From NCBI GenBank assembly GCA_030688205.1, contig JAUYIQ010000056.1, forward strand, positions 1-41,419: a stretch of 41,419 nt of DNA, given 5' to 3'. The stretch is from Candidatus Curtissbacteria bacterium. GTDB taxonomy: Bacteria > Patescibacteriota > Microgenomatia > Curtissbacterales > GWA2-41-24. The translations under genes and the position numbers were made by a program. The notes under the pieces are model-generated. The model did no database searches. It saw nothing but the letters and a program-made list of their open reading frames with translations, and was not told where the DNA came from. Shown here piece after piece: positions 10,777-41,051 of this stretch. Position 1 is the first letter of the stretch. Each line of letters starts with the position of its first letter.

Positions 10777-11862
10777 TCAAGCGCGGGTGCTATAAGAGAG
10801 TGATTGTGAGGGGAATCCTTCTACATATTGTCCAACAGCTGGAACTTTTTGGGAGATTTCACGAAGCTTATTTTTAATATCGTACCAATCTTCATAAGTA
10901 AAATATAATGCACCGGCTGCTCTTCTAAGTTCTCTTTCAAAACGGCTGTCTTTTAAGGCAAAGTAAAAAGCAATTTGATCTTTGGCATCAATTGCAGCTT
11001 TATCCGATGCGCCGTCGCCTATGTATATTACTGCTCTTTCGGGATCGTCAACTGCTTCTTTCTGAATGACTGCTGCTTTTTCCGCAGATATTACAGAGTC
11101 AGCTTCAATACCCCAGATTTTGAAGTCATGGGGGATTGGAATACGTTCAAAAGTGCCTTTAACAGATAAAGCGGCGTTTGCGGTTATGATTCTTACCGGT
11201 ACGTCTTCTTCTATAAAGCCTGTGAATGATTCTTGGACTCCGTTACGCAGGTGTGAAATCCGGCCATAGTTTAAATATTGTTCGGGGTAATTGGTTATAG
11301 TTGGTTTGAATGTGGCCGGGTGCATGTTGATTAAGGCTGTTTTGAACTCAATGTCTTTAACTGCCTGAAGGGCTACATCAAAGGTAAAGGCTACGGGAAA
11401 CCCTGGTTTTACTCCGTCTACCATCTGAATTACGTCCTCATCGGTTATCGTGCCGTCGAAGTCGGAAACAATCTTTATCCCGTGCAGAGATGTTGCGAGT
11501 CTTGAAGCTGCTCTTTGTTCGGGAGTGCGTGCAGGTAGTTGGTCTGCAATTTCATATCTATCTTTAATTCTGGCTAGCAGTTTTTGGCTTTCGGGTGTTT
11601 GAAGTCCTTCCACAAACTCTTTGTTTGCGGCAAACAGCGTTTCTGCAGCATCACGTAAGTGAGGCATAACAACTTTACCTGTGAGGTGTTCCTGGAGCTG
11701 CTGGGCGCTTGCATGAGTTCGTACAAGCCAGCCCGTAAGCCTTAAAATGTTGTTATAGTGTGCCTGGATAGCGTCAGGATGATATGGGTCGATTTCCGTA
11801 AGACCTATTAAATCGGCTCCTTGTGGGAGCCCATCTGACGTACCTGTGTTACGTTCGGTCAT
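10777..11862 (-). CDS. HAD-superfamily (subfamily IB, PSP/MtnX-like) phosphatase with an unknown ~120-aa N-terminal extension
   Basis: HAD motif I DFDGTITDED and motif IV GDGASDKAAI. Confidence 0.75.
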   Translation of the reverse strand: MTERNTGTSDGLPQGADLIGLTEIDPYHPDAIQAHYNNILRLTGWLVRTHASAQQLQEHLTGKVVMPHLRDAAETLFAANKEFVEGLQTPESQKLLARIKDRYEIADQLPARTPEQRAASRLATSLHGIKIVSDFDGTITDEDVIQMVDGVKPGFPVAFTFDVALQAVKDIEFKTALINMHPATFKPTITNYPEQYLNYGRISHLRNGVQESFTGFIEEDVPVRIITANAALSVKGTFERIPIPHDFKIWGIEADSVISAEKAAVIQKEAVDDPERAVIYIGDGASDKAAIDAKDQIAFYFALKDSRFERELRRAAGALYFTYEDWYDIKNKLREISQKVPAVGQYVEGFPSQSLSYSTRA

Positions 11863-11954: not shown

Positions 11955-13310
11955 ATGGCTTTGTCTTGCGCGTATCTGCTCATAAGAAGTATGATTGTGA
12001 GTGTGCACAACACACCGGTTGAGGCCTCATACCCTTTAGAATTTCGTGTGGAAGAAGCAAAAAACCTTGGAGAGCAGCTCAGGTTCAGGCATAACGTCGA
12101 GCTTGTGGGTATGAAGCACGTTGGAATCGGTAACTTCCTGAGCTATTTTCTCAACCATGCCGGGGTTGTAGACAGGTTTATAAACCACGGAGAAAAACAC
12201 CTTTTTATCACGGTAGACCTCAATGATCTGGTTGAGCGTGAAATTCATCCCTTTTGGGTTCTTTTATTTAAGCGAGTTGTAGATAGCTGCGAAAGCATTG
12301 AAATTGATCTTGCTGACAAAAAAGAAATTTCCTCGCTGTTTTTAAGTTCTATCCAGTCCCAAGACTTGTTTTCAACCATTGAAAATTTGAAAAAATCCTT
12401 GAATCTTATTGTCAAAAACGATTTTCTGCCGACTATTTTCTTGCTTCGTCTTGACAGGCTCAAAGACGTATTTAACGAGGAGTTTTTTAGCAATTTGGAA
12501 GGGCTTGTCGATGCAACCGGCCAAAAGCTAGCGTATGTTTTTACAAGTTACAGATCTTTAGGAGAAATAGCACAACCTTTTTTCGAAAAGAAATACCCGA
12601 CGCTTTTTCCAAATAAGATTTATGTGAAACCTGCAGGGGAGAGTGATACACAAATCATATTTAAAACATTTGAGAAAAAATATGAACTTGTATTAGATAA
12701 GGTCATTTTAAAGAAAATTTTTGATCTTTCTGCGGGTCATGTTCAGTATCTTCAGCTTTCGCTTCTGATACTCAAGCAAAAAATCGGAGATAATTCGGTA
12801 GATGCCAGTCGCCTGATGGCAACTATTGCAGCCGACGAAAGAGTCAATTTGCTTTCAGAGGAAATCTGGGAAAGTTTGACACGGGAAGAGCAAGAAGTTC
12901 TGAAAAAAATAAGGACGGGGAAAAGTATCGGTGAGCTGGAGAAGAAAAAAGCGCAGTATTTATGGGATTGTGGAGTTGTGAGTGCAAAAAACAGTCAGAT
13001 AGCAATTTTTAATCCCTTGTTCGAAAATTATCTTAAAGGAAGTGATGTTAAAGGGGATCGAATTGAGGCTGTTGAATTTACCAAAAAAGAGAATTTACTT
13101 TTTCTTCTTTTGAAGGAGTCTGTAGGTGAAGTATGCGAGAGGGAAAAAATAATAAAGACTGTTTGGCCGGAATATGAAGAAGTGGGAGTTTCCGATTGGA
13201 CAATAGACAGGCTAGTTGCAAGACTGAGGAATAAATTGAAGCAACAAAATAGTCCGTACACAATTAAAACCATCAAAACAAGAGGTTATATGTTGGTTGA
13301 GGAGAGTTAA
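11955..13310 (+). CDS. transcriptional regulator: degenerate NTPase-like N-domain plus C-terminal OmpR/PhoB-type winged helix
   Basis: The C-terminus (VCEREKIIKTVWPEYE...DWTIDRLVARLRNKL...IKTIKTRGYML) is a trans_reg_C fold. The N-terminal VELVGMKHVGIGNF resembles a Walker A that lacks the Lys. Start uncertain; an alternative ATG lies at 11991. Confidence 0.68.
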   Translation: MALSCAYLLIRSMIVSVHNTPVEASYPLEFRVEEAKNLGEQLRFRHNVELVGMKHVGIGNFLSYFLNHAGVVDRFINHGEKHLFITVDLNDLVEREIHPFWVLLFKRVVDSCESIEIDLADKKEISSLFLSSIQSQDLFSTIENLKKSLNLIVKNDFLPTIFLLRLDRLKDVFNEEFFSNLEGLVDATGQKLAYVFTSYRSLGEIAQPFFEKKYPTLFPNKIYVKPAGESDTQIIFKTFEKKYELVLDKVILKKIFDLSAGHVQYLQLSLLILKQKIGDNSVDASRLMATIAADERVNLLSEEIWESLTREEQEVLKKIRTGKSIGELEKKKAQYLWDCGVVSAKNSQIAIFNPLFENYLKGSDVKGDRIEAVEFTKKENLLFLLLKESVGEVCEREKIIKTVWPEYEEVGVSDWTIDRLVARLRNKLKQQNSPYTIKTIKTRGYMLVEES

Positions 13311-13317
13311 ATATGCC
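13296..13317 (+). repeat. copy 1 of a perfect 22-nt direct repeat, GTTGAGGAGAGTTAAATATGCC
   Basis: Spans the regulator stop codon, a GAGGAGAG Shine-Dalgarno and the methyltransferase ATG. Identical to 14073-14094. Confidence 0.95.
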
Positions 13318-13996
13318 GAAAGAAACGATAGTTGATATAGGTTGCGGACAAAAAAATAACTTATGGCTTTACGGGTTTTATGAAGAGCCAACAGTAGGTG
13401 TAGATTTCTGTAGGGAATTTCTTCAAAGGAGGGCTGGAGACGGAAATCTTGTAACTGGAGATAGTGCAAATTTGCCACTTGTTTCTAATTGTGCCGACAA
13501 GGTTTTTGTCATCCACGTTTTAGAGCATGTTGATGCGCTTAGTGGTACATTAGACGAAATCGGCCGTGTTTTAAAATCAGGAGGGGAGCTTACTGTTGCT
13601 GTACCGCATAAACGCTTTGAAAGAGTCATGGGTAGTATAGATCCAGATTACCATGGGCCGAATATGCATTTGAGAATAGTGAAAGAAGAAGATTTAACTG
13701 AAGAACTTCAGAGTAGAGATTTTGAAATAGAAGAGGTAAAAACGAGAGGCTTTTGGGGAGCTGCTTATATAACAGCTGCGTCATTCCTACATCTTAAGAT
13801 CCTGAAAGACAGGAAGATGGAAGCGCAGAGCGGGTACCTTGTGAAAGGTGATGATGGACAAATAACAGAAGGAGTGAGGGGAGAAACCGGGAAAATGTTA
13901 AAGTTTGCTAGAAGTTTTTTAACAAAAAATCCCATATTTTCAATATTGGACAAAGTTTATCCGTTTGAAACTTACGTTAGAGCAGTAAAGAGGTAG
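13313..13996 (+). CDS. class I SAM-dependent methyltransferase
   Basis: Motif I VDIGCGQ. Methyltransf_11-like FVIHVLEHV...LDEIGRVLKSGGEL. Confidence 0.85.
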   Translation: MPKETIVDIGCGQKNNLWLYGFYEEPTVGVDFCREFLQRRAGDGNLVTGDSANLPLVSNCADKVFVIHVLEHVDALSGTLDEIGRVLKSGGELTVAVPHKRFERVMGSIDPDYHGPNMHLRIVKEEDLTEELQSRDFEIEEVKTRGFWGAAYITAASFLHLKILKDRKMEAQSGYLVKGDDGQITEGVRGETGKMLKFARSFLTKNPIFSILDKVYPFETYVRAVKR

Positions 13997-14072
13997 ATGT
14001 GAGCGATTTAGTTTCTAACTATAAAAAAGATTTATGTTTAGCTTAATGGTTGAAAGGTTTTGCGATAAGGGA

Positions 14073-14094
14073 GTTGAGGAGAGTTAAATATGCC
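14073..14094 (+). repeat. copy 2 of the perfect 22-nt direct repeat, GTTGAGGAGAGTTAAATATGCC
   Basis: Identical to 13296-13317. Here it ends a 17-codon relic ORF (...GVEES*) and supplies the Shine-Dalgarno and ATG of the 14090 ORF. Confidence 0.95.
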
Positions 14095-14635
14095 TGCTGA
14101 AATTTTGACGGAATCAGGGACATTGTTGCTACCACCTCAGGAGGCTCTTGCGCATATATCCTCGACAAATCGCTTTGCCAGAATTGTCATTGAAGTTTTA
14201 AGAAAAGGAGCTGAATTCAAGGACCAGACAGCAGAGTTGACCAGACATTACAATCGAAGTATCAGGAATTTTCGTGATTTGTTACGTTTTGATTGCGAGG
14301 TGCCGATTGGAGACTCGGATCAAACCGCACATATTGCCATTGTTTCTGAGAGAACACCAAAAGAATCGAAATCGTTTCCATTGACAGATGGCGTTGTGGA
14401 TTTTTTCTTATCTCCGACTAAATCTGCCGGGTTTCGCGGTAGCCACAAGTTAGCCCAAATAACAACTTCGCCGGATAAAATTTCCCTTCCGGAATTTAGA
14501 TTTGATTTGTCATCGAATTTTGGCAAATTCGCAACGGATTTTATTGCGAGGCTTGCTGCCAGGCTGAATGAAATTAGAGAAGATATTTCGGGTGATCCTA
14601 CCCAGACGCCTCTTGCGGAGCCAAATCCATCCTAA
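14090..14635 (+). CDS. hypothetical protein
   Basis: 181-aa ORF with a strong Shine-Dalgarno (GAGGAGAG). No recognisable motif. Its 3' end overlaps the convergent GNAT gene by 38 nt. Confidence 0.6.
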   Translation: MPAEILTESGTLLLPPQEALAHISSTNRFARIVIEVLRKGAEFKDQTAELTRHYNRSIRNFRDLLRFDCEVPIGDSDQTAHIAIVSERTPKESKSFPLTDGVVDFFLSPTKSAGFRGSHKLAQITTSPDKISLPEFRFDLSSNFGKFATDFIARLAARLNEIREDISGDPTQTPLAEPNPS

Positions 14636-15044
14636 ACTCAAGCCCCCATTTTTTGAAGCCAAGATTTTCGTAGAATTTGTGAATATCGGCGCGGTCCATG
14701 CCTGAAGTAAAAATTATTTTGTAACAGTTTTTTCCTTTTGCAAGTTCTACAATTTTTTTGGAAAGAGCAGTGCCTATTCCTTTGCCCCTTTGTTTTTCGT
14801 CTACGATCATTCCTTCCAACAAGGCATAAGATTGACCGTGAGCAGGGATAGGCAGGTAAAAAATTGTGGCGGTACCAACAACTGTGCCGTCAATTTTGGC
14901 AACAAGTACACTGCAGTTGTCGTTTGCTATTAATTTTTCCAGTATTTCTGCGGCATTTGACGCAATATTTTCGACTCTGTAAATTTGCAACTGAAGCAGC
15001 AAAATGCCTTCGATGTCGTTTTTTGTGGCGAAGGTTATTTCCAT
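14598..15044 (-). CDS. GNAT-family N-acetyltransferase
   Basis: Acetyl-CoA binding motif QRGKGIGTAL. 148 aa. A TACAAT box lies 6 nt upstream of the ATG. Confidence 0.85.
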   Translation of the reverse strand: MEITFATKNDIEGILLLQLQIYRVENIASNAAEILEKLIANDNCSVLVAKIDGTVVGTATIFYLPIPAHGQSYALLEGMIVDEKQRGKGIGTALSKKIVELAKGKNCYKIIFTSGMDRADIHKFYENLGFKKWGLEFRMDLAPQEASG

Positions 15045-15091: not shown

Positions 15092-16309
15092 ATGAAGCTA
15101 TACGAATTTGAGGGGCATAAGATTTTTTCCAAGGTGGGCATTGAAAGCCCTTTTTTTGTGGTTATCTCTAAAGTTGAAGAGCTAGAGCAGGCCAGACGGC
15201 GGCTTAAATTCCCCATTGTTTGCAAGGTTCAGGTTCTTTCCGGCAAAAGAGGGAAAAGCGGTGGGGTCAAAGTTGCTATGAATGAAAAACAGCTGAAGGA
15301 TTTTGTCGGAGAATTTTTGGGAAAAGATTTCAATGGTGAAGAAGTCCGGTTTATTGAGCTTTGCAAAAAAGTTGATATTGAGGCTGAGAACTACATTTCT
15401 ATTACATACGACACTGTTTTGAAATCTCCATTTTTGCTTTTTTGTGCTGCGGGAGGTGTTGATATTGAAGAAGTTAAAAAAACAGATCCACAAGCGATTA
15501 TTAGATACGATTTTGACGTTTTTGCTGGACCCGTAAAAAAAGAGCTTGAAAAGCTTGGGATACCCTCGGACTTTGCAATGAGGCTTTGGGATGCTTTTTC
15601 CAAATATGATTGCCGGTTGGTTGAAGTGAATCCCTTCGCTCTTTGCAGAGCTCAGGGTAAACCACCTAAGTATGTGGCAGTTGATTCAAAGATAATTCTG
15701 GATGATGCAGGAGTTTCCCGTCATAGGGACTTGAACGTTTTGCCAAAGGGTGAAGTAGGAGCAGTTCCAACAGTGCGAGAGCTACAGGCTCGTGAAATAG
15801 ATGCTGAGGATTACAGAGGTACGGCCGGATCAAAATTTATTGAGTTTGATGGAGATATCGCGGTTCTTGCGTCTGGCGGTGGAGCGTCACTTCTTGTAAT
15901 GGACTCGATGTTTGCAGCAGGTGGAAAGCCGGCGAACTATACGGAATATTCCGGGAATCCGCCGAGAGAGAAGGTTGAAAAGTTAACGAAGATTGCTTTA
16001 TCTCGTGAGGGGCTTCGTGGTTGCTTAGTTGCGGGGGCTGTTGCTAACTTTACTGATATTTTTGAAACTCTATCCGGTTTTGTTGACGGTTTAGTTCAGG
16101 TTAAACCAAAGCCTGCTTATCCTATTGTGATTAGGCGCGGAGGGCCAAGATTGAAAGAGGCATATGAGATGCTTTCGCTTTTATCCAAAAAAGAAGGTTT
16201 TGACATTCATTTGTATGGACCGGAGACGCCAATTTCTGTCGCTGCGAAAAAGATGGTGGAACTGTCGGAGAAATTTAAGAAGTCGCAAGTTAAAAGTGCT
16301 AAGTTATAA
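15092..16309 (+). CDS. ATP-citrate lyase beta / citryl-CoA synthetase large subunit-like ATP-grasp protein (SucC homolog)
   Basis: Start at MKLYEFEGHKIF; the track ORF's upstream 76 codons overlap the GNAT gene. It has ACL-type motifs SGGGASLLV, ANYTEYSGNPP, VANFTDIF and IRRGGP instead of the SucC NGAGLAM / ANFLDVGGGA motifs. Confidence 0.82.
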   Translation: MKLYEFEGHKIFSKVGIESPFFVVISKVEELEQARRRLKFPIVCKVQVLSGKRGKSGGVKVAMNEKQLKDFVGEFLGKDFNGEEVRFIELCKKVDIEAENYISITYDTVLKSPFLLFCAAGGVDIEEVKKTDPQAIIRYDFDVFAGPVKKELEKLGIPSDFAMRLWDAFSKYDCRLVEVNPFALCRAQGKPPKYVAVDSKIILDDAGVSRHRDLNVLPKGEVGAVPTVRELQAREIDAEDYRGTAGSKFIEFDGDIAVLASGGGASLLVMDSMFAAGGKPANYTEYSGNPPREKVEKLTKIALSREGLRGCLVAGAVANFTDIFETLSGFVDGLVQVKPKPAYPIVIRRGGPRLKEAYEMLSLLSKKEGFDIHLYGPETPISVAAKKMVELSEKFKKSQVKSAKL

Positions 16310-23709: not shown

Positions 23710-24645
23710 ATGATTTTTAGTCTGTCCGATTTGATTGAAGAATTTCTGGAATATTTGGAAGTTGAGCGCAACCTTTCTCCTCTAACCATCCGCGATTACA
23801 AACATTACCTGAATTTTTTTAATGATTGGTCTCGTGCAAACGCGCCGGTTTCTAAACCATCGGATATTACTCTTGAACTGGTCCGCAAGTATAGAGTCTA
23901 TTTAGCCCATTTTAACAGTCCAAACGGTAATTTACCGCTCAAAAAAGTGACACAGAATTATTATGTGATTGCTCTGCGCTCTTTTCTCAAATACCTAATA
24001 AGGAAAGATATTGCCGTTGTTTCTCCGGACAAGATTGAATTACCAAAGACCGAATCGAGATCGCTTAAGTTTTTGGATCGTGAACAATTGGAGAGACTTT
24101 TAGCACAACCCGATATGTCCCGCGACCGCGGCGTAAGAGACAAAGCGATTATGGAGATGCTTTTTTCGACGGGTCTTCGTGTTTCTGAACTTTGCAAACT
24201 GGATCGGGATCAGGTAAATATCGACCGGAAGGAATTCGGAGTGATTGGCAAAGGCGGACGTGCAAGAGTTGTCTTTTTATCGGATCGAGCTGCCATTTGG
24301 CTGGAAAAATACGTAGCGAGACGTGCGGATAGTTTTAAGCCACTTTTTATTCGCTATTCAGGGAATCAAGAACCGACTGTAAATGGTGAGCAGATGAGGC
24401 TGACTTCCCGTTCGGTGCAGCGATTAGTTGATAAATACTGCCGTCGTGCACGCTTGCCTGTGAAGATAAGCCCCCATGGTATCCGCCATTCGTTTGCAAC
24501 GGATTTATTGTTAAACGGTGCAGATTTGAGGAGCGTTCAGGAGATGCTTGGTCATAAAAATGTTTCCACGACGCAAATATACACTCACGTTACCAATGCA
24601 CAACTTCGGGACGTGCATAGGGCATTTCATGGTGGAAACAAATAA
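23710..24645 (+). CDS. xerC: site-specific tyrosine recombinase, XerC/XerD family
   Basis: SAM-like N-domain. Catalytic region RDKAIMEMLFSTGLRVSEL ... HGIRHSFATDLL ... LGHKNVSTTQIYTHV. Confidence 0.9.
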   Translation: MIFSLSDLIEEFLEYLEVERNLSPLTIRDYKHYLNFFNDWSRANAPVSKPSDITLELVRKYRVYLAHFNSPNGNLPLKKVTQNYYVIALRSFLKYLIRKDIAVVSPDKIELPKTESRSLKFLDREQLERLLAQPDMSRDRGVRDKAIMEMLFSTGLRVSELCKLDRDQVNIDRKEFGVIGKGGRARVVFLSDRAAIWLEKYVARRADSFKPLFIRYSGNQEPTVNGEQMRLTSRSVQRLVDKYCRRARLPVKISPHGIRHSFATDLLLNGADLRSVQEMLGHKNVSTTQIYTHVTNAQLRDVHRAFHGGNK

Positions 24646-38131: not shown

Positions 38132-39880
38132 ATGGCAGATGCTGCCCCAAACACAAACACGAGCGCTTCAAAAGTAGCTCATTCTCGTGCTACATACATT
38201 GAGGATGTACTAGCCGCTAAAGGTCTTTTAACCACTCAGCAACTCACTTTTATTAAGAGTGAGTCTAAAAGAAGACAAGAACCACCTGAAAAAATTCTGT
38301 CTCAAATGGGGTGGGTATCTCAAGAACAATTAGCCTCTGCAAGAGCAGATGTCATTGGTGTTCCTTACGTGGATCCTTCTACAGCGCCAATTTCGCCTGA
38401 AGTTCTAGCTTTTTTGCCCGAAGAAGTTGCGAAAAGATTTGTGGTCATTCCTACTGCAAAAGAAGGTGATACTTTGTCTGTAGCCATGGTAGATCCTTTG
38501 GACTTGCAGGTTTTGGAATTTATCGAGAAAAAAAGTGGTTATGCTGTCAGGCCTTATATTGCTACTGCCGACGCTATAAATCGCGCAATTGCCGAACAAT
38601 ATACGAGAGGGCTTTCTTTCGAGGTTGGAGAGGCTTTAAAAGAAGCTTCTACGAATGTAATCATGCCTCTAACCGGTCCAGAGTCGATAACAGGAGTATT
38701 GGGAGAAGCACCTATTGCCCGAATAGTTTCAACGCTTTTGGAGTATGGCATTCGCGTTCGGGCGTCGGACATTCATATTGAGCCTCTGGAGAACGAGACC
38801 AGAATTAGATATAGAATTGACGGAATTTTACACGAGAAGTTGATTCTACCGAGGCGTATTCACGATGCAATCGTTTCCAGAATAAAAATTCTTGGAAATA
38901 TGAAGATTGATGAAAGGCGTTTGCCGCAAGATGCCCGGTTTAATTTTAAAATTGGGCAAGAAGATATTGATTTACGTCTTTCAACAATGCCAACTGCTTA
39001 CGGTGAAAAAATTGTAATGAGGCTTTTGAAAAAGTCCGGCGGAGTACCTACTCTACCCGAACTTGGACTTCGTGGAATGGCACTTAAGCATCTTGAAGAA
39101 AATATTGCAAGGCCGCACGGGATTATTTTGATTACAGGTCCGACCGGGAGTGGAAAAACTACTACTCTTTACTCTATTTTGTCCAAGTTAAATTCGACAA
39201 GAGTGAATATTGTAACGCTTGAAGATCCAATTGAGTATCAAATTGCGGGCGTGAATCAGGAACAGATTAATCAAAAGGCCGGGTTGACGTTTGCTTCAGG
39301 ACTTAGGTCTTTTTTACGTCAGGACCCGAACATTATTATGGTTGGAGAGATTCGTGATAATGAAACCAGTGATCTTGCGATTCAAGCTTCCTTAACCGGA
39401 CATTTGGTGTTTTCTACTTTGCATACGAATAATGCTGCAGGTGCTTTGCCCAGGCTTCTGGATATGAAAGCCCAGCCGTATTTAATTGCATCAACAGTTA
39501 CATGTGTTGTTGGCCAAAGGGTAGTCAGGATGATTTGCCAAACGTGTAAGGGGCCAAAAGTTATGAGTGAGGAAATTCTTGCTACAATAAAGAAAAGCTT
39601 GGGTAGTCTCTATAACTTTGATAAAGCTAAGGTCTCTCTTTATATTGGCCGCGGATGCAAAGAGTGTAACAATACAGGCTATTTGGGACGTATTGCTATT
39701 TTTGAGGTTTTAGTTGTTTCGGTGAAGGTTGCTGAGCTTATTTTGACTCATGCAACATCGCAAAATATTGAAAAGCAGGCAATTTCTGAAGGAATGATTA
39801 CAATGAAACAAGATGGGTTTTTGAAGGTTTTGGAAGGTGTCACATCAATTGAGGAGGTTTTGAGAGTAGCCGAAGAGTAA
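38132..39880 (+). CDS. pilB: type IV pilus assembly ATPase PilB / GspE family
   Basis: 582 aa. N-terminal T2SSE_N domain. Walker A GPTGSGKTTT, Asp/His boxes, and a C-terminal CxxC...CxxC zinc motif. Confidence 0.92.
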   Translation: MADAAPNTNTSASKVAHSRATYIEDVLAAKGLLTTQQLTFIKSESKRRQEPPEKILSQMGWVSQEQLASARADVIGVPYVDPSTAPISPEVLAFLPEEVAKRFVVIPTAKEGDTLSVAMVDPLDLQVLEFIEKKSGYAVRPYIATADAINRAIAEQYTRGLSFEVGEALKEASTNVIMPLTGPESITGVLGEAPIARIVSTLLEYGIRVRASDIHIEPLENETRIRYRIDGILHEKLILPRRIHDAIVSRIKILGNMKIDERRLPQDARFNFKIGQEDIDLRLSTMPTAYGEKIVMRLLKKSGGVPTLPELGLRGMALKHLEENIARPHGIILITGPTGSGKTTTLYSILSKLNSTRVNIVTLEDPIEYQIAGVNQEQINQKAGLTFASGLRSFLRQDPNIIMVGEIRDNETSDLAIQASLTGHLVFSTLHTNNAAGALPRLLDMKAQPYLIASTVTCVVGQRVVRMICQTCKGPKVMSEEILATIKKSLGSLYNFDKAKVSLYIGRGCKECNNTGYLGRIAIFEVLVVSVKVAELILTHATSQNIEKQAISEGMITMKQDGFLKVLEGVTSIEEVLRVAEE

Positions 39881-39995: not shown

Positions 39996-41051
39996 ATGTC
40001 GATACAAGAGTTCTTAGAGATTGTTGTTAAAAAAGAGGCTTCGGATTTACACTTGGTTGTGGGAACTCCTGCAATGGTAAGAGTGGACGGGCAGTTAATG
40101 CCGGTTTCTGCCGCAGCGCTTACTCCTGAAGAAACAGAGACTTTGGTTTTTGAACTTCTTTCGCCTGAACAAAAAGAATTACTTTTGGTAAACAAAGAGC
40201 TGGATTTTTCATTCGCCTTGGGAGATGTAGCGAGATTCAGGGTAAATGCTTATTACCAAAAGGGATATTTGTCCGCAGCTTTGAGGTTAATCCCCTCTTA
40301 CATAAAGACTATTGAGGAATTGAATCTGCCGAGAATTTGCCATAAATTTGCTAAACTGCGACAAGGTTTTATTTTGGTTACCGGTCCGACTGGTCACGGC
40401 AAATCTACTTCGATTGCTTCCATGATAAACGAGATTAACCAAACCAAAGCGCTTCATATTGTAACTATCGAAGATCCAATTGAATACGTGTATCCTAAGG
40501 CTAAGTCATTGGTTTCGCAGAGGGAAATGCATTTAGACACGCATTCGTGGGACGTTGCACTCAGGTCGGTTTTGAGGGAGGACCCCGATGTTGTTCTGGT
40601 CGGTGAAATGAGAGACTTTGAAACTATAGCGTCTGCAATTACTGTTGCTGAAACCGGGCATTTGGTTTTTGCAACGTTGCATACAAACTCTGCTGCGCAG
40701 TCAATTGACAGAATCATCGACGTTTTTCCGGAAAATCAGCAGGCGCAGGTGAGGATGCAATTGGCGTCAACTATAGCAGGTATAGTTTCGATAAGACTGG
40801 TAAGCGCAATAGGTGGAGGCAGACTTCCGGCAGTTGAGATACTTCTGGCAAGCTCTGCGGTACAAACGTCGGTGCGCGAAGGTAAAACTCATATGATTGA
40901 TAACATAATACAAACATCCGGTGCTGAAGGCATGATTCTTATGGATGCATCTCTCGCGTATTTAGTGCGCGCCGGACGAATTTCACTTGATGTTGCCCAA
41001 ACTTACTGTGTGAGGCCTGAAGAGCTTGATCGGATGATCGGAGGGGAATGA
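39996..41051 (+). CDS. pilT: type IV pilus retraction (twitching motility) ATPase PilT
   Basis: 351 aa. ASDLHL motif, Walker A GPTGHGKST, and GHLVFATLHTNSA. Confidence 0.93.
   Translation: MSIQEFLEIVVKKEASDLHLVVGTPAMVRVDGQLMPVSAAALTPEETETLVFELLSPEQKELLLVNKELDFSFALGDVARFRVNAYYQKGYLSAALRLIPSYIKTIEELNLPRICHKFAKLRQGFILVTGPTGHGKSTSIASMINEINQTKALHIVTIEDPIEYVYPKAKSLVSQREMHLDTHSWDVALRSVLREDPDVVLVGEMRDFETIASAITVAETGHLVFATLHTNSAAQSIDRIIDVFPENQQAQVRMQLASTIAGIVSIRLVSAIGGGRLPAVEILLASSAVQTSVREGKTHMIDNIIQTSGAEGMILMDASLAYLVRAGRISLDVAQTYCVRPEELDRMIGGE

What the first reader, a model, noticed from the sequence alone, without database searches (positions are those of the whole stretch)
13296..14094. A perfect 22-nt direct repeat brackets the SAM-methyltransferase gene, duplicating a gene junction
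GTTGAGGAGAGTTAAATATGCC occurs at 13296-13317 and again at 14073-14094. A perfect 22-mer is far beyond chance in 41 kb.

Each copy contains the codons ...VEES, a stop, a GAGGAGAG Shine-Dalgarno and an ATG. Copy 1 joins the wHTH regulator to the methyltransferase. Copy 2 terminates a 17-codon relic ORF (MFSLMVERFCDKGVEES, 14034-14087) and starts the 181-aa unknown ORF.

The simplest reading is that the methyltransferase gene was inserted precisely into an original regulator/14090-ORF junction, or can be excised by recombination between the repeats. In other words, it behaves as a cassette delimited by a duplicated translational-coupling site.
Basis: seen in the sequence. Interest (0 to 1): 0.6.

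Follow-up and report, generated by a model that had tools for sequence, protein, structure and literature searches.

The report
Duplicated gene junction flanking a methyltransferase
A 22-base stretch holding the end of a regulator gene, a ribosome-binding site and a start codon occurs twice, on either side of a methyltransferase gene, in a tiny groundwater-type bacterium (Candidatus Curtissbacteria); it looks like the scar of an ordinary recombination event in a gene slot that varies among relatives, not a new mobile-cassette system.

Summary
GTTGAGGAGAGTTAAATATGCC lies at 13296-13317 and 14073-14094. There are no other copies, even with 3 mismatches, in the 969-kb assembly.

Copy 1 is the ordinary, conserved junction at the end of the wHTH regulator. 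Copy 2 is an extra copy placed directly in front of the 181-aa orphan gene, here called Z.

The interval between the regulator and the convergent GNAT gene is a variable slot in Curtissbacteria. At least nine different gene contents were seen among relatives.

The sister contig L029 (about 90% nt identity) has the regulator followed directly by Z, with no methyltransferase. A distant relative, L031, has an orthologous methyltransferase (53% aa) in the same position.

On the regulator tree, a recent gain in this lineage is the most parsimonious reading.

L029 is not an exact empty site, because it carries 14 extra bases. No other slot shows a duplicated junction. No integrase, transposase or inverted repeats mark the boundaries.

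The 76-nt spacer also holds an older, decayed copy of the regulator tail plus the start of another slot gene (Y).

Best reading: a homology-anchored recombinational insertion displaced and duplicated the recipient junction, so both genes share one stop/SD/start module.

The parts
11955..13310 (+). Conserved wHTH regulator: a Trans_reg_C winged helix at the C-terminus and a degenerate AAA-like N-terminal region. It is the left anchor of the variable slot.
   Evidence: Pfam PF00486 2e-14 and a weak AAA_35 hit. More than 1000 homologues at E<1e-30. Syntenic in all relatives examined.
13296..13317 (+). Repeat copy 1 (J1): the last 4 regulator codons (VEES), TAA, the SD GAGGAGAG, then AT and ATGCC, which starts the methyltransferase.
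   Evidence: The same junction is present in orthologous form in L029, G001, L041 and L031, so this is the original copy.
13313..13996 (+). Class I SAM-dependent methyltransferase, 227 aa. Motif I starts at residue 7. It is an accessory gene of the slot.
   Evidence: Pfam Methyltransf_11 2.4e-13, above cut-off. NCBIfam DVU_1556-like 5.5e-12, below cut-off. PDB 3l8d 5e-5. The only close relative is P0004 in L031, 53% identical and in the same position. No orthologue in 31 other family genomes.
14017..14072 (+). Decayed older junction copy (J0): regulator-tail-like 14017-14039, stop-like AGCTTA 14039-14044, then ATGGTTGAAAGG... (14046-14072), which resembles the start of the gene (Y) that follows the regulator in methyltransferase-less relatives.
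   Evidence: The spacer was aligned to [own regulator tail + L041 Y start]: p=0.009-0.03 by dinucleotide shuffles, and 2 of 1062 other window pieces score as well. AATGGTTG occurs once in the 41-kb + strand, here. ATGNNNGARMGR occurs twice in the window, once here. Support is moderate, not conclusive.
14034..14087 (+). 17-codon ORF (MFSLMVERFCDKGVEES) that runs from the decayed junction into copy 2. It has no SD of its own and is probably not a gene.
   Evidence: Read directly from the sequence. The in-frame ATG at 14046 is the Y-start relic.
14073..14094 (+). Repeat copy 2 (J2): a perfect duplicate of J1. It gives the 181-aa gene the same SD, stop codon, 2-nt spacer and ATGCC start.
   Evidence: It is absent from the corresponding place in L029 and from the methyltransferase-to-next-gene spacer of L031.
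14090..14635 (+). 181-aa orphan gene (Z). Its 3' end overlaps the convergent GNAT gene by 38 nt.
   Evidence: No Pfam, NCBIfam or PADLOC hit. Only itself among 1.84 billion representatives. 83% identical in L029. Homologous to the second slot gene of L041, E=2e-10. The AF2 model is weak (best model pLDDT 71, the others 36-50) and has no significant fold match.
14598..15044 (-). Conserved GNAT acetyltransferase, convergent with the slot genes. It is the right anchor of the variable slot.
   Evidence: Pfam Acetyltransf_1 2.3e-17. Syntenic in relatives.

Best explanation
The 22-mer is the native junction between the regulator and the 181-aa gene Z: the regulator's last 15 nt including the stop, with the SD embedded in its last codons, then a 2-nt spacer and the ATG. 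After this lineage split from its sister L029, a segment of about 0.75 kb was recombined into that junction. The segment carried a promoter-less methyltransferase gene. It came from another Curtissbacteria lineage in which the methyltransferase already sat directly behind the same regulator. The left end of the event was anchored by homology in the regulator's 3' end. The right end joined 15 nt upstream of the recipient's stop codon. This could have happened by a single crossover of a circularised fragment, by homology-facilitated illegitimate recombination, or by a replicative template switch. The result is that the recipient's own junction was displaced downstream and now stands as copy 2 in front of Z, while copy 1 serves the methyltransferase. 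Both genes therefore use the same stop/SD/start module and can be translationally coupled to what lies upstream. The decayed junction copy between the methyltransferase and copy 2 would be the scar of an older event of the same kind, carried in with the donor segment.

Shown: the repeat, the variable slot, the methyltransferase-less sister, the orthologue in the same position in a distant relative, and the absence of mobile-element features. Inferred: the direction (gain), the donor, the mechanism of joining, and the function of copy 2 as Z's ribosome-binding site.
For: - The repeat is perfect, unique in the genome and ends abruptly at both sides.
- Copy 1 is orthologous to the regulator end in all relatives. 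Copy 2 has no counterpart in L029 or L031.
- L029 is the sister on the regulator tree (support 100/99). It is about 90% nt identical across the regulator, Z and GNAT, and has the regulator directly followed by Z without the methyltransferase.
- The next outgroups, G001, L041, L042 and G017, also lack the methyltransferase. That means 1 gain against 5 or more losses.
- L031, in the other regulator clade, has a 53%-identical methyltransferase immediately after the regulator stop (TAATG overlap). Lineages that could serve as donors, with a homologous left anchor, therefore exist.
- The slot holds at least nine different gene contents between conserved flanks.
- Mosaic tracts in L029's regulator show that these lineages recombine.
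- RecA is present.
- The spacer holds a decayed regulator-tail plus Y-start copy, much more degraded than copy 2. This fits two events of different age.
- Aligning copy 2 plus Z to L029's junction needs one 14-nt indel. The alternative alignment needs several.
- A single crossover of a circular molecule is documented to leave the homologous segment duplicated on both sides of the insert (PMC3240628). Homology-anchored insertion that displaces older genes downstream of a conserved gene is the model proposed for Vibrio T6SS and Rhs arrays (PMC5361080).
Against: - No exact empty site was found. L029 has 14 extra bases at the junction, so an extra small deletion must be assumed in this lineage.
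- Donor and recipient would have had to be identical over all 22 nt including ATGCC, although this stretch differs among genus-level relatives. Alternatively, both copies were made from one template.
- There is no significant excess of lineage-specific substitutions in the regulator's last 100 nt: 6 against a mean of 3.2, not significant.
- Methyltransferase GC is the same as its neighbours.
- Methyltransferase divergence from L031 (53%) equals regulator divergence (55%), which also fits long vertical co-inheritance.
- 22 nt is at the lower limit for RecA-type homologous recombination (general knowledge).
- Only two methyltransferase-bearing lineages are known, so the gain/loss count rests on sparse sampling.
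Confidence: 0.5

Rival explanations
1. Secondary local duplication. The methyltransferase entered the slot between the regulator stop and the relic of gene Y, or was inherited there, by ordinary double-crossover recombination. This cut Z off from the SD embedded in the regulator's last codons. Later, a 17-22-nt copy of junction J1 was written in front of Z's ATG by template switching or short-patch conversion, and it was kept because it restored a ribosome-binding site. A sub-variant: the methyltransferase is ancestral to this genome and L029, and L029 lost it by recombination between J1 and the then less decayed J0.
For: AATGGTTG directly follows the regulator stop in L029 and L041. In the window it lies between the methyltransferase and copy 2, so relative to L029 the methyltransferase indel could be bounded by TAAA|...|ATGGTTG rather than by the 22-mers. 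Z in L029 and the next gene after the methyltransferase in L031 have no SD of their own. L029 instead uses a 4-codon mini-ORF with a TAATG overlap. Methyltransferase and regulator divergence from L031 are equal. Perfect identity follows automatically if both copies come from one template.
Against: It needs more events: the insertion, the duplication and at least two more indels in a 27-nt relic between genomes that are only about 10% diverged. If the decayed junction J0 were the recipient's own displaced tail, it would be far too degraded for an event after the split from L029. There is no microhomology at the left edge of copy 2. The loss sub-variant needs five or more independent losses on the tree.
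Confidence: 0.3
2. Active cassette. The 22-mer is a recombination site at which the methyltransferase gene is inserted and excised repeatedly in present-day populations, either by a dedicated recombinase or by frequent repeat-mediated deletion.
For: Direct repeats of 22 nt bracket exactly one gene. Recombination between them would give a clean regulator-Z junction. Methyltransferase-less relatives exist.
Against: No other copy of the site exists in the genome. No duplicated junction was found in six other slots. The only tyrosine recombinases are Xer-type, one of them 10 kb away and one on another contig. There are no inverted repeats or folding signal at the site. Both assemblies carry the filled form. 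The methyltransferase-less L029 junction is not the product of recombination between the 22-mers.
Confidence: 0.07
3. Chance, convergence on an optimal ribosome-binding site, or an assembly chimera of two strain variants joined through a shared 22-mer.
For: Part of the repeat (GGAG, spacing, ATG) is under the same functional constraint at both places. The genome is a metagenome-assembled draft of 105 contigs.
Against: None of 100 shuffles gave any match. No other gene start in the genome comes within 3 mismatches. The identity includes unconstrained bases: GTT, TTAAAT, CC. The same arrangement is present in a second assembly that differs by 5 SNPs. A chimera would still need the 22-mer to exist downstream of the methyltransferase in a real molecule.
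Confidence: 0.04

Closest known systems
Campbell-type single-crossover integration and homology-facilitated illegitimate recombination (HFIR) in bacteria (de Vries & Wackernagel 2002 and Prudhomme et al. 2002, as cited in PMC5361080; E. coli data in PMC3240628)
   Same: Foreign DNA enters next to a homologous anchor. With a single crossover, the homologous segment ends up as a direct repeat on both sides of the insert. No mobile-element genes are needed.
   Different: The duplicated segment here is only 22 nt. In the E. coli experiments the duplications were 109-950 bp. The donor, the anchor length and the joining step are all inferred, not observed.
Sequential displacement arrays downstream of a conserved gene: Vibrio cholerae T6SS effector-immunity modules and Rhs/CDI orphan arrays (PMC5361080)
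   Same: A conserved upstream gene serves as the anchor. New modules are inserted directly behind it and older ones are pushed downstream. Displaced units keep a short piece of the conserved gene's 3' end.
   Different: No toxin or immunity genes are involved. The anchor is a transcription regulator. The retained piece is a stop/SD/start junction and not a coding tip. Only one clear and one decayed displaced junction are present.
Flexible genomic islets (variable slots between conserved core genes) in streamlined bacteria
   Same: The flanks are conserved and syntenic (regulator; GNAT and the citrate-cleavage operon). The number of accessory genes between them ranges from 0 to 3, and the same gene families recur in distant lineages.
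   Different: The slot is very small (0-1.7 kb). It is not next to a tRNA gene, and no integrase is adjacent.
Integron gene cassettes
   Same: Promoter-less single genes sit in one orientation behind a fixed upstream element.
   Different: There is no attC, no attI, no IntI, and no repeated boundary in relatives.

Membership tests
Integron gene cassette | An attC site (imperfect inverted repeats able to fold) at the cassette boundary | tested here: not met
   No inverted repeat at or near 13296-13317 or 14073-14094. Folding of both junction regions is no better than shuffles, z = 0.01 and 0.73.
Integron gene cassette | An adjacent integron integrase (IntI) and attI | tested here: not met
   The assembly has only two tyrosine recombinases. 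The one in the window (23710-24645) is 10 kb away and is XerC/D-type (246 bits). It scores 105 bits against an integron-integrase cut-off of 265.
Integron gene cassette | The same boundary sequence recurs between successive cassettes and in related arrays | tested here: not met
   No junction duplication in the slots of L029, L004, L041, L042, L044 or L031. The longest match is 7-8 nt, p = 0.4-0.8.
Insertion sequence / transposon with target-site duplication | A transposase gene and terminal inverted repeats inside the direct repeats | tested here: not met
   The 755 nt between the repeats encode only a Methyltransf_11 protein. There are no inverted repeats at the ends. A 22-nt duplication is longer than the usual 2-14 bp (general knowledge).
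Flexible genomic islet (variable slot between conserved genes) | Conserved syntenic flanks with different gene content among relatives | tested here: met
   The order regulator, [slot], GNAT(-), citrate-cleavage genes, RuvC is kept throughout. Slot contents seen: empty (L005, L045-47); Pterin_4a (L044); Pterin_4a + 173 aa (L042); 140 aa (the P0023 contig); Y306 (L004); Y + Z + one more gene (L041); Z (L029); MTase + Y343 (L031); MTase + Z (window, L030).
Homology-anchored insertion with junction duplication (single crossover / HFIR) | A direct repeat of recipient sequence flanks the insert | tested here: met
   A perfect 22-nt repeat brackets the methyltransferase segment.
Homology-anchored insertion with junction duplication (single crossover / HFIR) | A relative with the uninterrupted site whose sequence equals one repeat copy plus both outer flanks | tested here: inconclusive
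   L029 has the regulator next to Z, but with 14 extra bases and 3 substitutions at the junction. No closer relative is available.
Homology-anchored insertion with junction duplication (single crossover / HFIR) | Potential donors that carry the inserted gene next to the homologous anchor | tested here: met
   L031 has the regulator, a TAATG overlap and then the methyltransferase (53% aa identity).
Homology-anchored insertion with junction duplication (single crossover / HFIR) | A donor-derived tract in the anchor, or population reads that show both forms | not testable with these tools
Class I SAM-dependent methyltransferase (Pfam Methyltransf_11) | A profile match above the curated cut-off, including motif I (VDIGCG) | tested here: met
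   PF08241 at 51 bits against a cut-off of 21.2. Motif I lies at residues 7-12. The substrate is unknown.

The most novel reading that the evidence does not exclude
The regulator's last codons, stop codon, SD and start codon act as a reusable, integrase-independent docking site. Promoter-less genes are captured there one after another, each taking over the shared start region. The three nested junction copies (functional J1, decayed J0, perfect J2) would record two successive captures. The common ATG-NNN-GAA-AGA start of unrelated regulator-proximal genes (the methyltransferase in L031 and the window; Y in G001 and L041) would be the captured start. This would be a minimal cassette system in CPR bacteria.
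Probability: 0.12. Interest if true: 0.6.

Novelty: new member of a known kind. Interest (0 to 1): 0.3.

Why it matters
This is a clean, dated example of how an ultra-small CPR genome with few mobile elements gains a gene. The gene is slotted directly behind a conserved regulator in a tiny variable islet, and the translation-initiation module is duplicated so that neither gene loses its ribosome-binding site. It illustrates homology-anchored gene gain and displacement outside the toxin/immunity loci where that model was developed. It also marks the regulator-GNAT interval of Curtissbacteria as a place to look for lineage-specific accessory genes that the regulator may control. It does not reveal a new mechanism.

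Tried and rejected
Only the window could be scanned, and nothing similar was found.
- Composition test: the methyltransferase has GC 0.399 and GC3 0.32, against 0.387 and 0.39 for the regulator. This is not informative.
- Methyltransferase phylogeny: only one orthologue exists besides near-identical copies, so no tree could be built.
- Wider search for Z: only itself among 1.84 billion representatives. The AF2 model is weak and the PDB fold search found nothing significant; the best hits are START/helix-grip-like at E=0.1 and TM 0.33.
- Defence-system reading of regulator, methyltransferase and Z: no PADLOC system.
- I first thought Z was a homologue of the 306/343-aa genes of G001 and L031. 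BLASTP does not support this (E=6.5). Z instead matches the second slot gene of L041, and the 306/343-aa genes form a separate family, Y.
- RNA structure, terminator or promoter at the repeats: none.
- Imported tract in the regulator's 3' end: not significant.
- Simple local alignments of the spacer to relatives' junctions were individually weak, p = 0.02-0.5. Only the pre-specified composite test and the motif-occurrence tests gave moderate support.
Full report
**Observation.** The 22-mer GTTGAGGAGAGTTAAATATGCC lies at 13296-13317 and 14073-14094, 777 nt apart.
- With up to 3 mismatches there are no other matches in the window, and none in 100 dinucleotide shuffles.
- There are none elsewhere in the 969-kb, 105-contig assembly.
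- It is the only perfect direct repeat of 16 nt or more within 4 kb in the window.
- Similarity ends abruptly at both edges.
- Copy 1 holds the last four codons and the stop of a 451-aa regulator, a GAGGAGAG Shine-Dalgarno and the ATG of a 227-aa methyltransferase.
- Copy 2 ends a 17-codon ORF (14034-14087) and starts a 181-aa ORF.
- A second assembly of almost the same strain, L030 (GCA_034372645.1), differs by 5 SNPs in 8155 nt and has both copies.

**The genes.**
- The regulator has a C-terminal Trans_reg_C winged helix and a weak AAA-like N-terminal region. It has more than 1000 homologues at E<1e-30 in Patescibacteria-type genomes.
- The methyltransferase is a generic class I SAM enzyme: Methyltransf_11 above cut-off, DVU_1556-like below cut-off, PDB 3l8d at 5e-5. 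Its motif I starts at residue 7.
- The 181-aa gene, called Z here, has no family in Pfam, NCBIfam or PADLOC. It finds only itself among 1.84 billion representatives. Its predicted structure is weak and has no significant fold match.
- Z's 3' end overlaps a convergent GNAT gene.
- Record titles of the nearest genomes name the organism as Candidatus Curtissbacteria.

**Comparative picture.** The order regulator, slot, GNAT(-), citrate-cleavage genes, RuvC is conserved. What lies between the regulator and GNAT varies:

| Slot content | Where seen |
|---|---|
| Nothing | G017/L005, L045-47 |
| Pterin_4a gene | L044 |
| Pterin_4a + 173-aa gene | L042 |
| 140-aa gene | P0023 contig |
| 306-aa gene | G001/L004 |
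| Three genes, the second a Z homologue (E=2e-10) | L041 |
| Z alone | L029 |
| Methyltransferase + 343-aa gene | L031 |
| Methyltransferase + Z | window, L030 |

The 306-aa and 343-aa genes are homologous to each other (E=5e-5) and are called Y here. This interval is therefore a small flexible islet.

**Direction of change.** A maximum-likelihood tree of the regulators gives clade A as (P0010,(G017,(L042,(L041,(G001,(window,L029)))))). A separate clade B holds L031, L044, L045 and others.
- Only the window (clade A) and L031 (clade B) carry the methyltransferase.
- L029 is the sister of the window (support 100/99). It is about 90% nt identical across the regulator, Z and GNAT.
- One gain after the split from L029 is more parsimonious than five or more losses.
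- Sampling is thin, however. Methyltransferase identity to L031 (53%) matches that of the regulator C-terminus (55%), which also fits long co-inheritance.
- Composition does not mark the gene as foreign. If it was transferred, the donor was another Curtissbacterium.
- L031 shows that such lineages exist: there the methyltransferase starts at a TAATG overlap with the regulator stop.

**Junction anatomy.** Sequence after the regulator stop in each genome:
- Window: TAA at ATGCCGAAAGAAACG (methyltransferase)
- L031: TAAtgATTGAAAGAGAAATAG (methyltransferase)
- L029: TAA a ATGGTTGCGAATTA ATGACTTCTGAAAATTTGACGG (Z)
- G001: TAA ATGGCCGAAAGACCC (Y)
- L041: TAG a ATGGTTGAGCGAAATTTTGG (Y)
- Window copy 2: ...GATAAGGGA GTTGAGGAGAGTTAA AT ATGCCTGCTGAAATTTTGACGG (Z)

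Four points follow.
1. Copy 1 is the orthologous, conserved regulator end.
2. Copy 2 is an extra copy. It has no counterpart in L029, or in the spacer between the methyltransferase and the next gene in L031.
3. L029 has regulator-Z adjacency but is not the exact empty site. Fourteen bases (ATGGTTGCGAATTA) sit between the stop and Z's ATG. They form a 4-codon mini-ORF whose TAA overlaps Z's ATG.
4. Those bases resemble the start of Y in L041 and G001.

**A third, decayed junction.** The 76-nt spacer between the methyltransferase stop and copy 2 contains AATGGTTGA at 14045.
- AATGGTTG, its first eight bases, is the sequence that directly follows the regulator stop in both L029 and L041 (L029 then reads C where the window and L041 read A). 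It occurs only once in the 41-kb + strand.
- The pattern ATG-NNN-GAR-MGR, shared by the regulator-proximal genes of L031, G001 and L041, occurs twice in the window, once here.
- Upstream of it lies a gapped match to the regulator's own last 28 nt (p=0.053).
- A pre-specified alignment of the spacer to [own regulator tail + L041 Y start] is better than 97-99% of dinucleotide shuffles. It is also better than all but 2 of 1062 other window pieces.

I read 14017-14072 as an old, degraded copy of regulator tail, stop and Y start. Support for this is moderate.

**Mechanism.** No mobile-element machinery is involved.
- The insert encodes only the methyltransferase.
- There are no inverted repeats at the ends and no folding signal.
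- There is no terminator or good promoter.
- The only tyrosine recombinases are Xer-type, one of them 10 kb away and the other on another contig.
- None of six other slots has a duplicated junction. This is a one-off scar and not a recurrent cassette boundary.

RecA is present. No ComEC domain was found in this 87%-complete draft, which proves nothing. A divergent patch in L029's regulator (12255-12455) shows that these lineages exchange DNA by homologous recombination.

Two families of explanation remain.

(a) Insertion with simultaneous duplication.
- The recipient had regulator, 22-mer and Z.
- The donor segment (methyltransferase, decayed junction, first 27 nt of Y) was anchored by homology at the regulator end.
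- It was joined 15 nt upstream of the recipient's stop, which displaced the recipient junction downstream.
- This explains the perfect copy 2 next to a much older decayed copy, the primitive state of L029, and the simplest alignment to L029 (one 14-nt indel).
- It has precedent. Single crossovers of circular molecules leave the homologous segment duplicated around the insert (PMC3240628). Homology-anchored displacement downstream of a conserved gene is the model for T6SS and Rhs arrays (PMC5361080).
- Its weak points are the missing exact empty site, the very short repeat, and the need for donor and recipient to agree over all 22 nt. A replicative template switch that copied the recipient junction twice would remove that last difficulty.

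(b) Later local duplication.
- The methyltransferase entered between the regulator stop and the Y relic, or was inherited there.
- A 17-22-nt copy of J1 was subsequently written in front of Z and kept because it restored an SD.
- This needs more events, and it makes the decayed junction too old for its supposed age. It cannot be excluded.

I give (a) 0.5, (b) 0.3, an active excisable cassette 0.07, and artefact or chance 0.04. The remainder is unassigned.

**Function of the duplicate (inferred).** In copy 2 the GAGGAGAG lies 6 nt upstream of Z's ATG. The TAA of the upstream frame lies 2 nt before the ATG. This is the same geometry that couples the methyltransferase to the regulator. L029 and L031 have no SD in front of the corresponding gene. 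The duplicate plausibly gives Z a ribosome-binding site after the methyltransferase separated it from the one embedded in the regulator's last codons.

**Verdict.** The repeat is real and non-random. The cassette and excision reading is not supported by anything beyond the repeat itself. The finding is a neat recombination scar in a variable islet of a CPR genome: a new member of a known kind, of modest interest.

Noticed in passing
window 14194, 14214, 14229: The window and assembly L030 differ by 5 SNPs over 8155 nt. Three of them fall within 36 nt of the orphan gene Z. This may be a local hot spot of variation or a small recombination patch.
   Followed up: no
window 12255-12455 (compared with L029 4900-5110): L029's regulator has a divergent patch: 27 L029-specific and 24 unpolarised differences in 200 nt. 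The rest of the gene is 90-97% identical. This is a mosaic tract that points to homologous recombination with a more distant lineage.
   Followed up: partly
window 10777-11862 (-) compared with L029 3424-4536: The HAD-like gene just upstream of the regulator is only about 40-50% nt identical between the window and L029. The regulator next to it is about 90% identical. The left neighbour is therefore also replaced or fast-evolving.
   Followed up: no
window 13313, 14046; L031 510; L004 2910; L041 2593: Unrelated genes that sit directly behind the regulator all begin ATG-NNN-GAA/G-AGA/CGA. This holds for the methyltransferase in L031 and, shifted by one base, in the window, and for Y in G001 and L041. 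GAAAGA has a per-position frequency of only 6.6e-4 in the window. Either the start region is captured and shared, or it is under a common constraint.
   Followed up: partly
window 12599-12620 and 15590-15611: A second 22-nt direct repeat, 20 of 22 identical (GAYGCTTTTTCCAAATAWGATT). One copy lies inside the regulator gene and the other inside the ACL-type ATP-grasp gene, 2991 nt apart. It may be chance, given the T-run and A-rich content.
   Followed up: no
window 39207-39237 and 40456-40486: A 31-nt direct repeat at 87% identity, 1249 nt apart. It probably marks a conserved motif of two paralogous neighbouring genes.
   Followed up: no
window 14598-14635: Z and the convergent GNAT gene overlap by 38 nt at their 3' ends. 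The slot genes of G001 and L031 also end in ...DPS over the GNAT tail. The last residues of slot genes are therefore dictated by the conserved GNAT end on the other strand.
   Followed up: no
window 23710-24645: A Xer-type tyrosine recombinase, XerC/D-like at 246 bits (below the equivalog cut-offs). It is one of only two tyrosine recombinases in the assembly.
   Followed up: partly
L029 5986-6003: In the methyltransferase-less sister, a 4-codon mini-ORF (ATGGTTGCGAATTAA) sits between the regulator stop and Z. Its stop overlaps Z's ATG (TAATG), which looks like a translational relay built from the relic of another gene's start.
   Followed up: no
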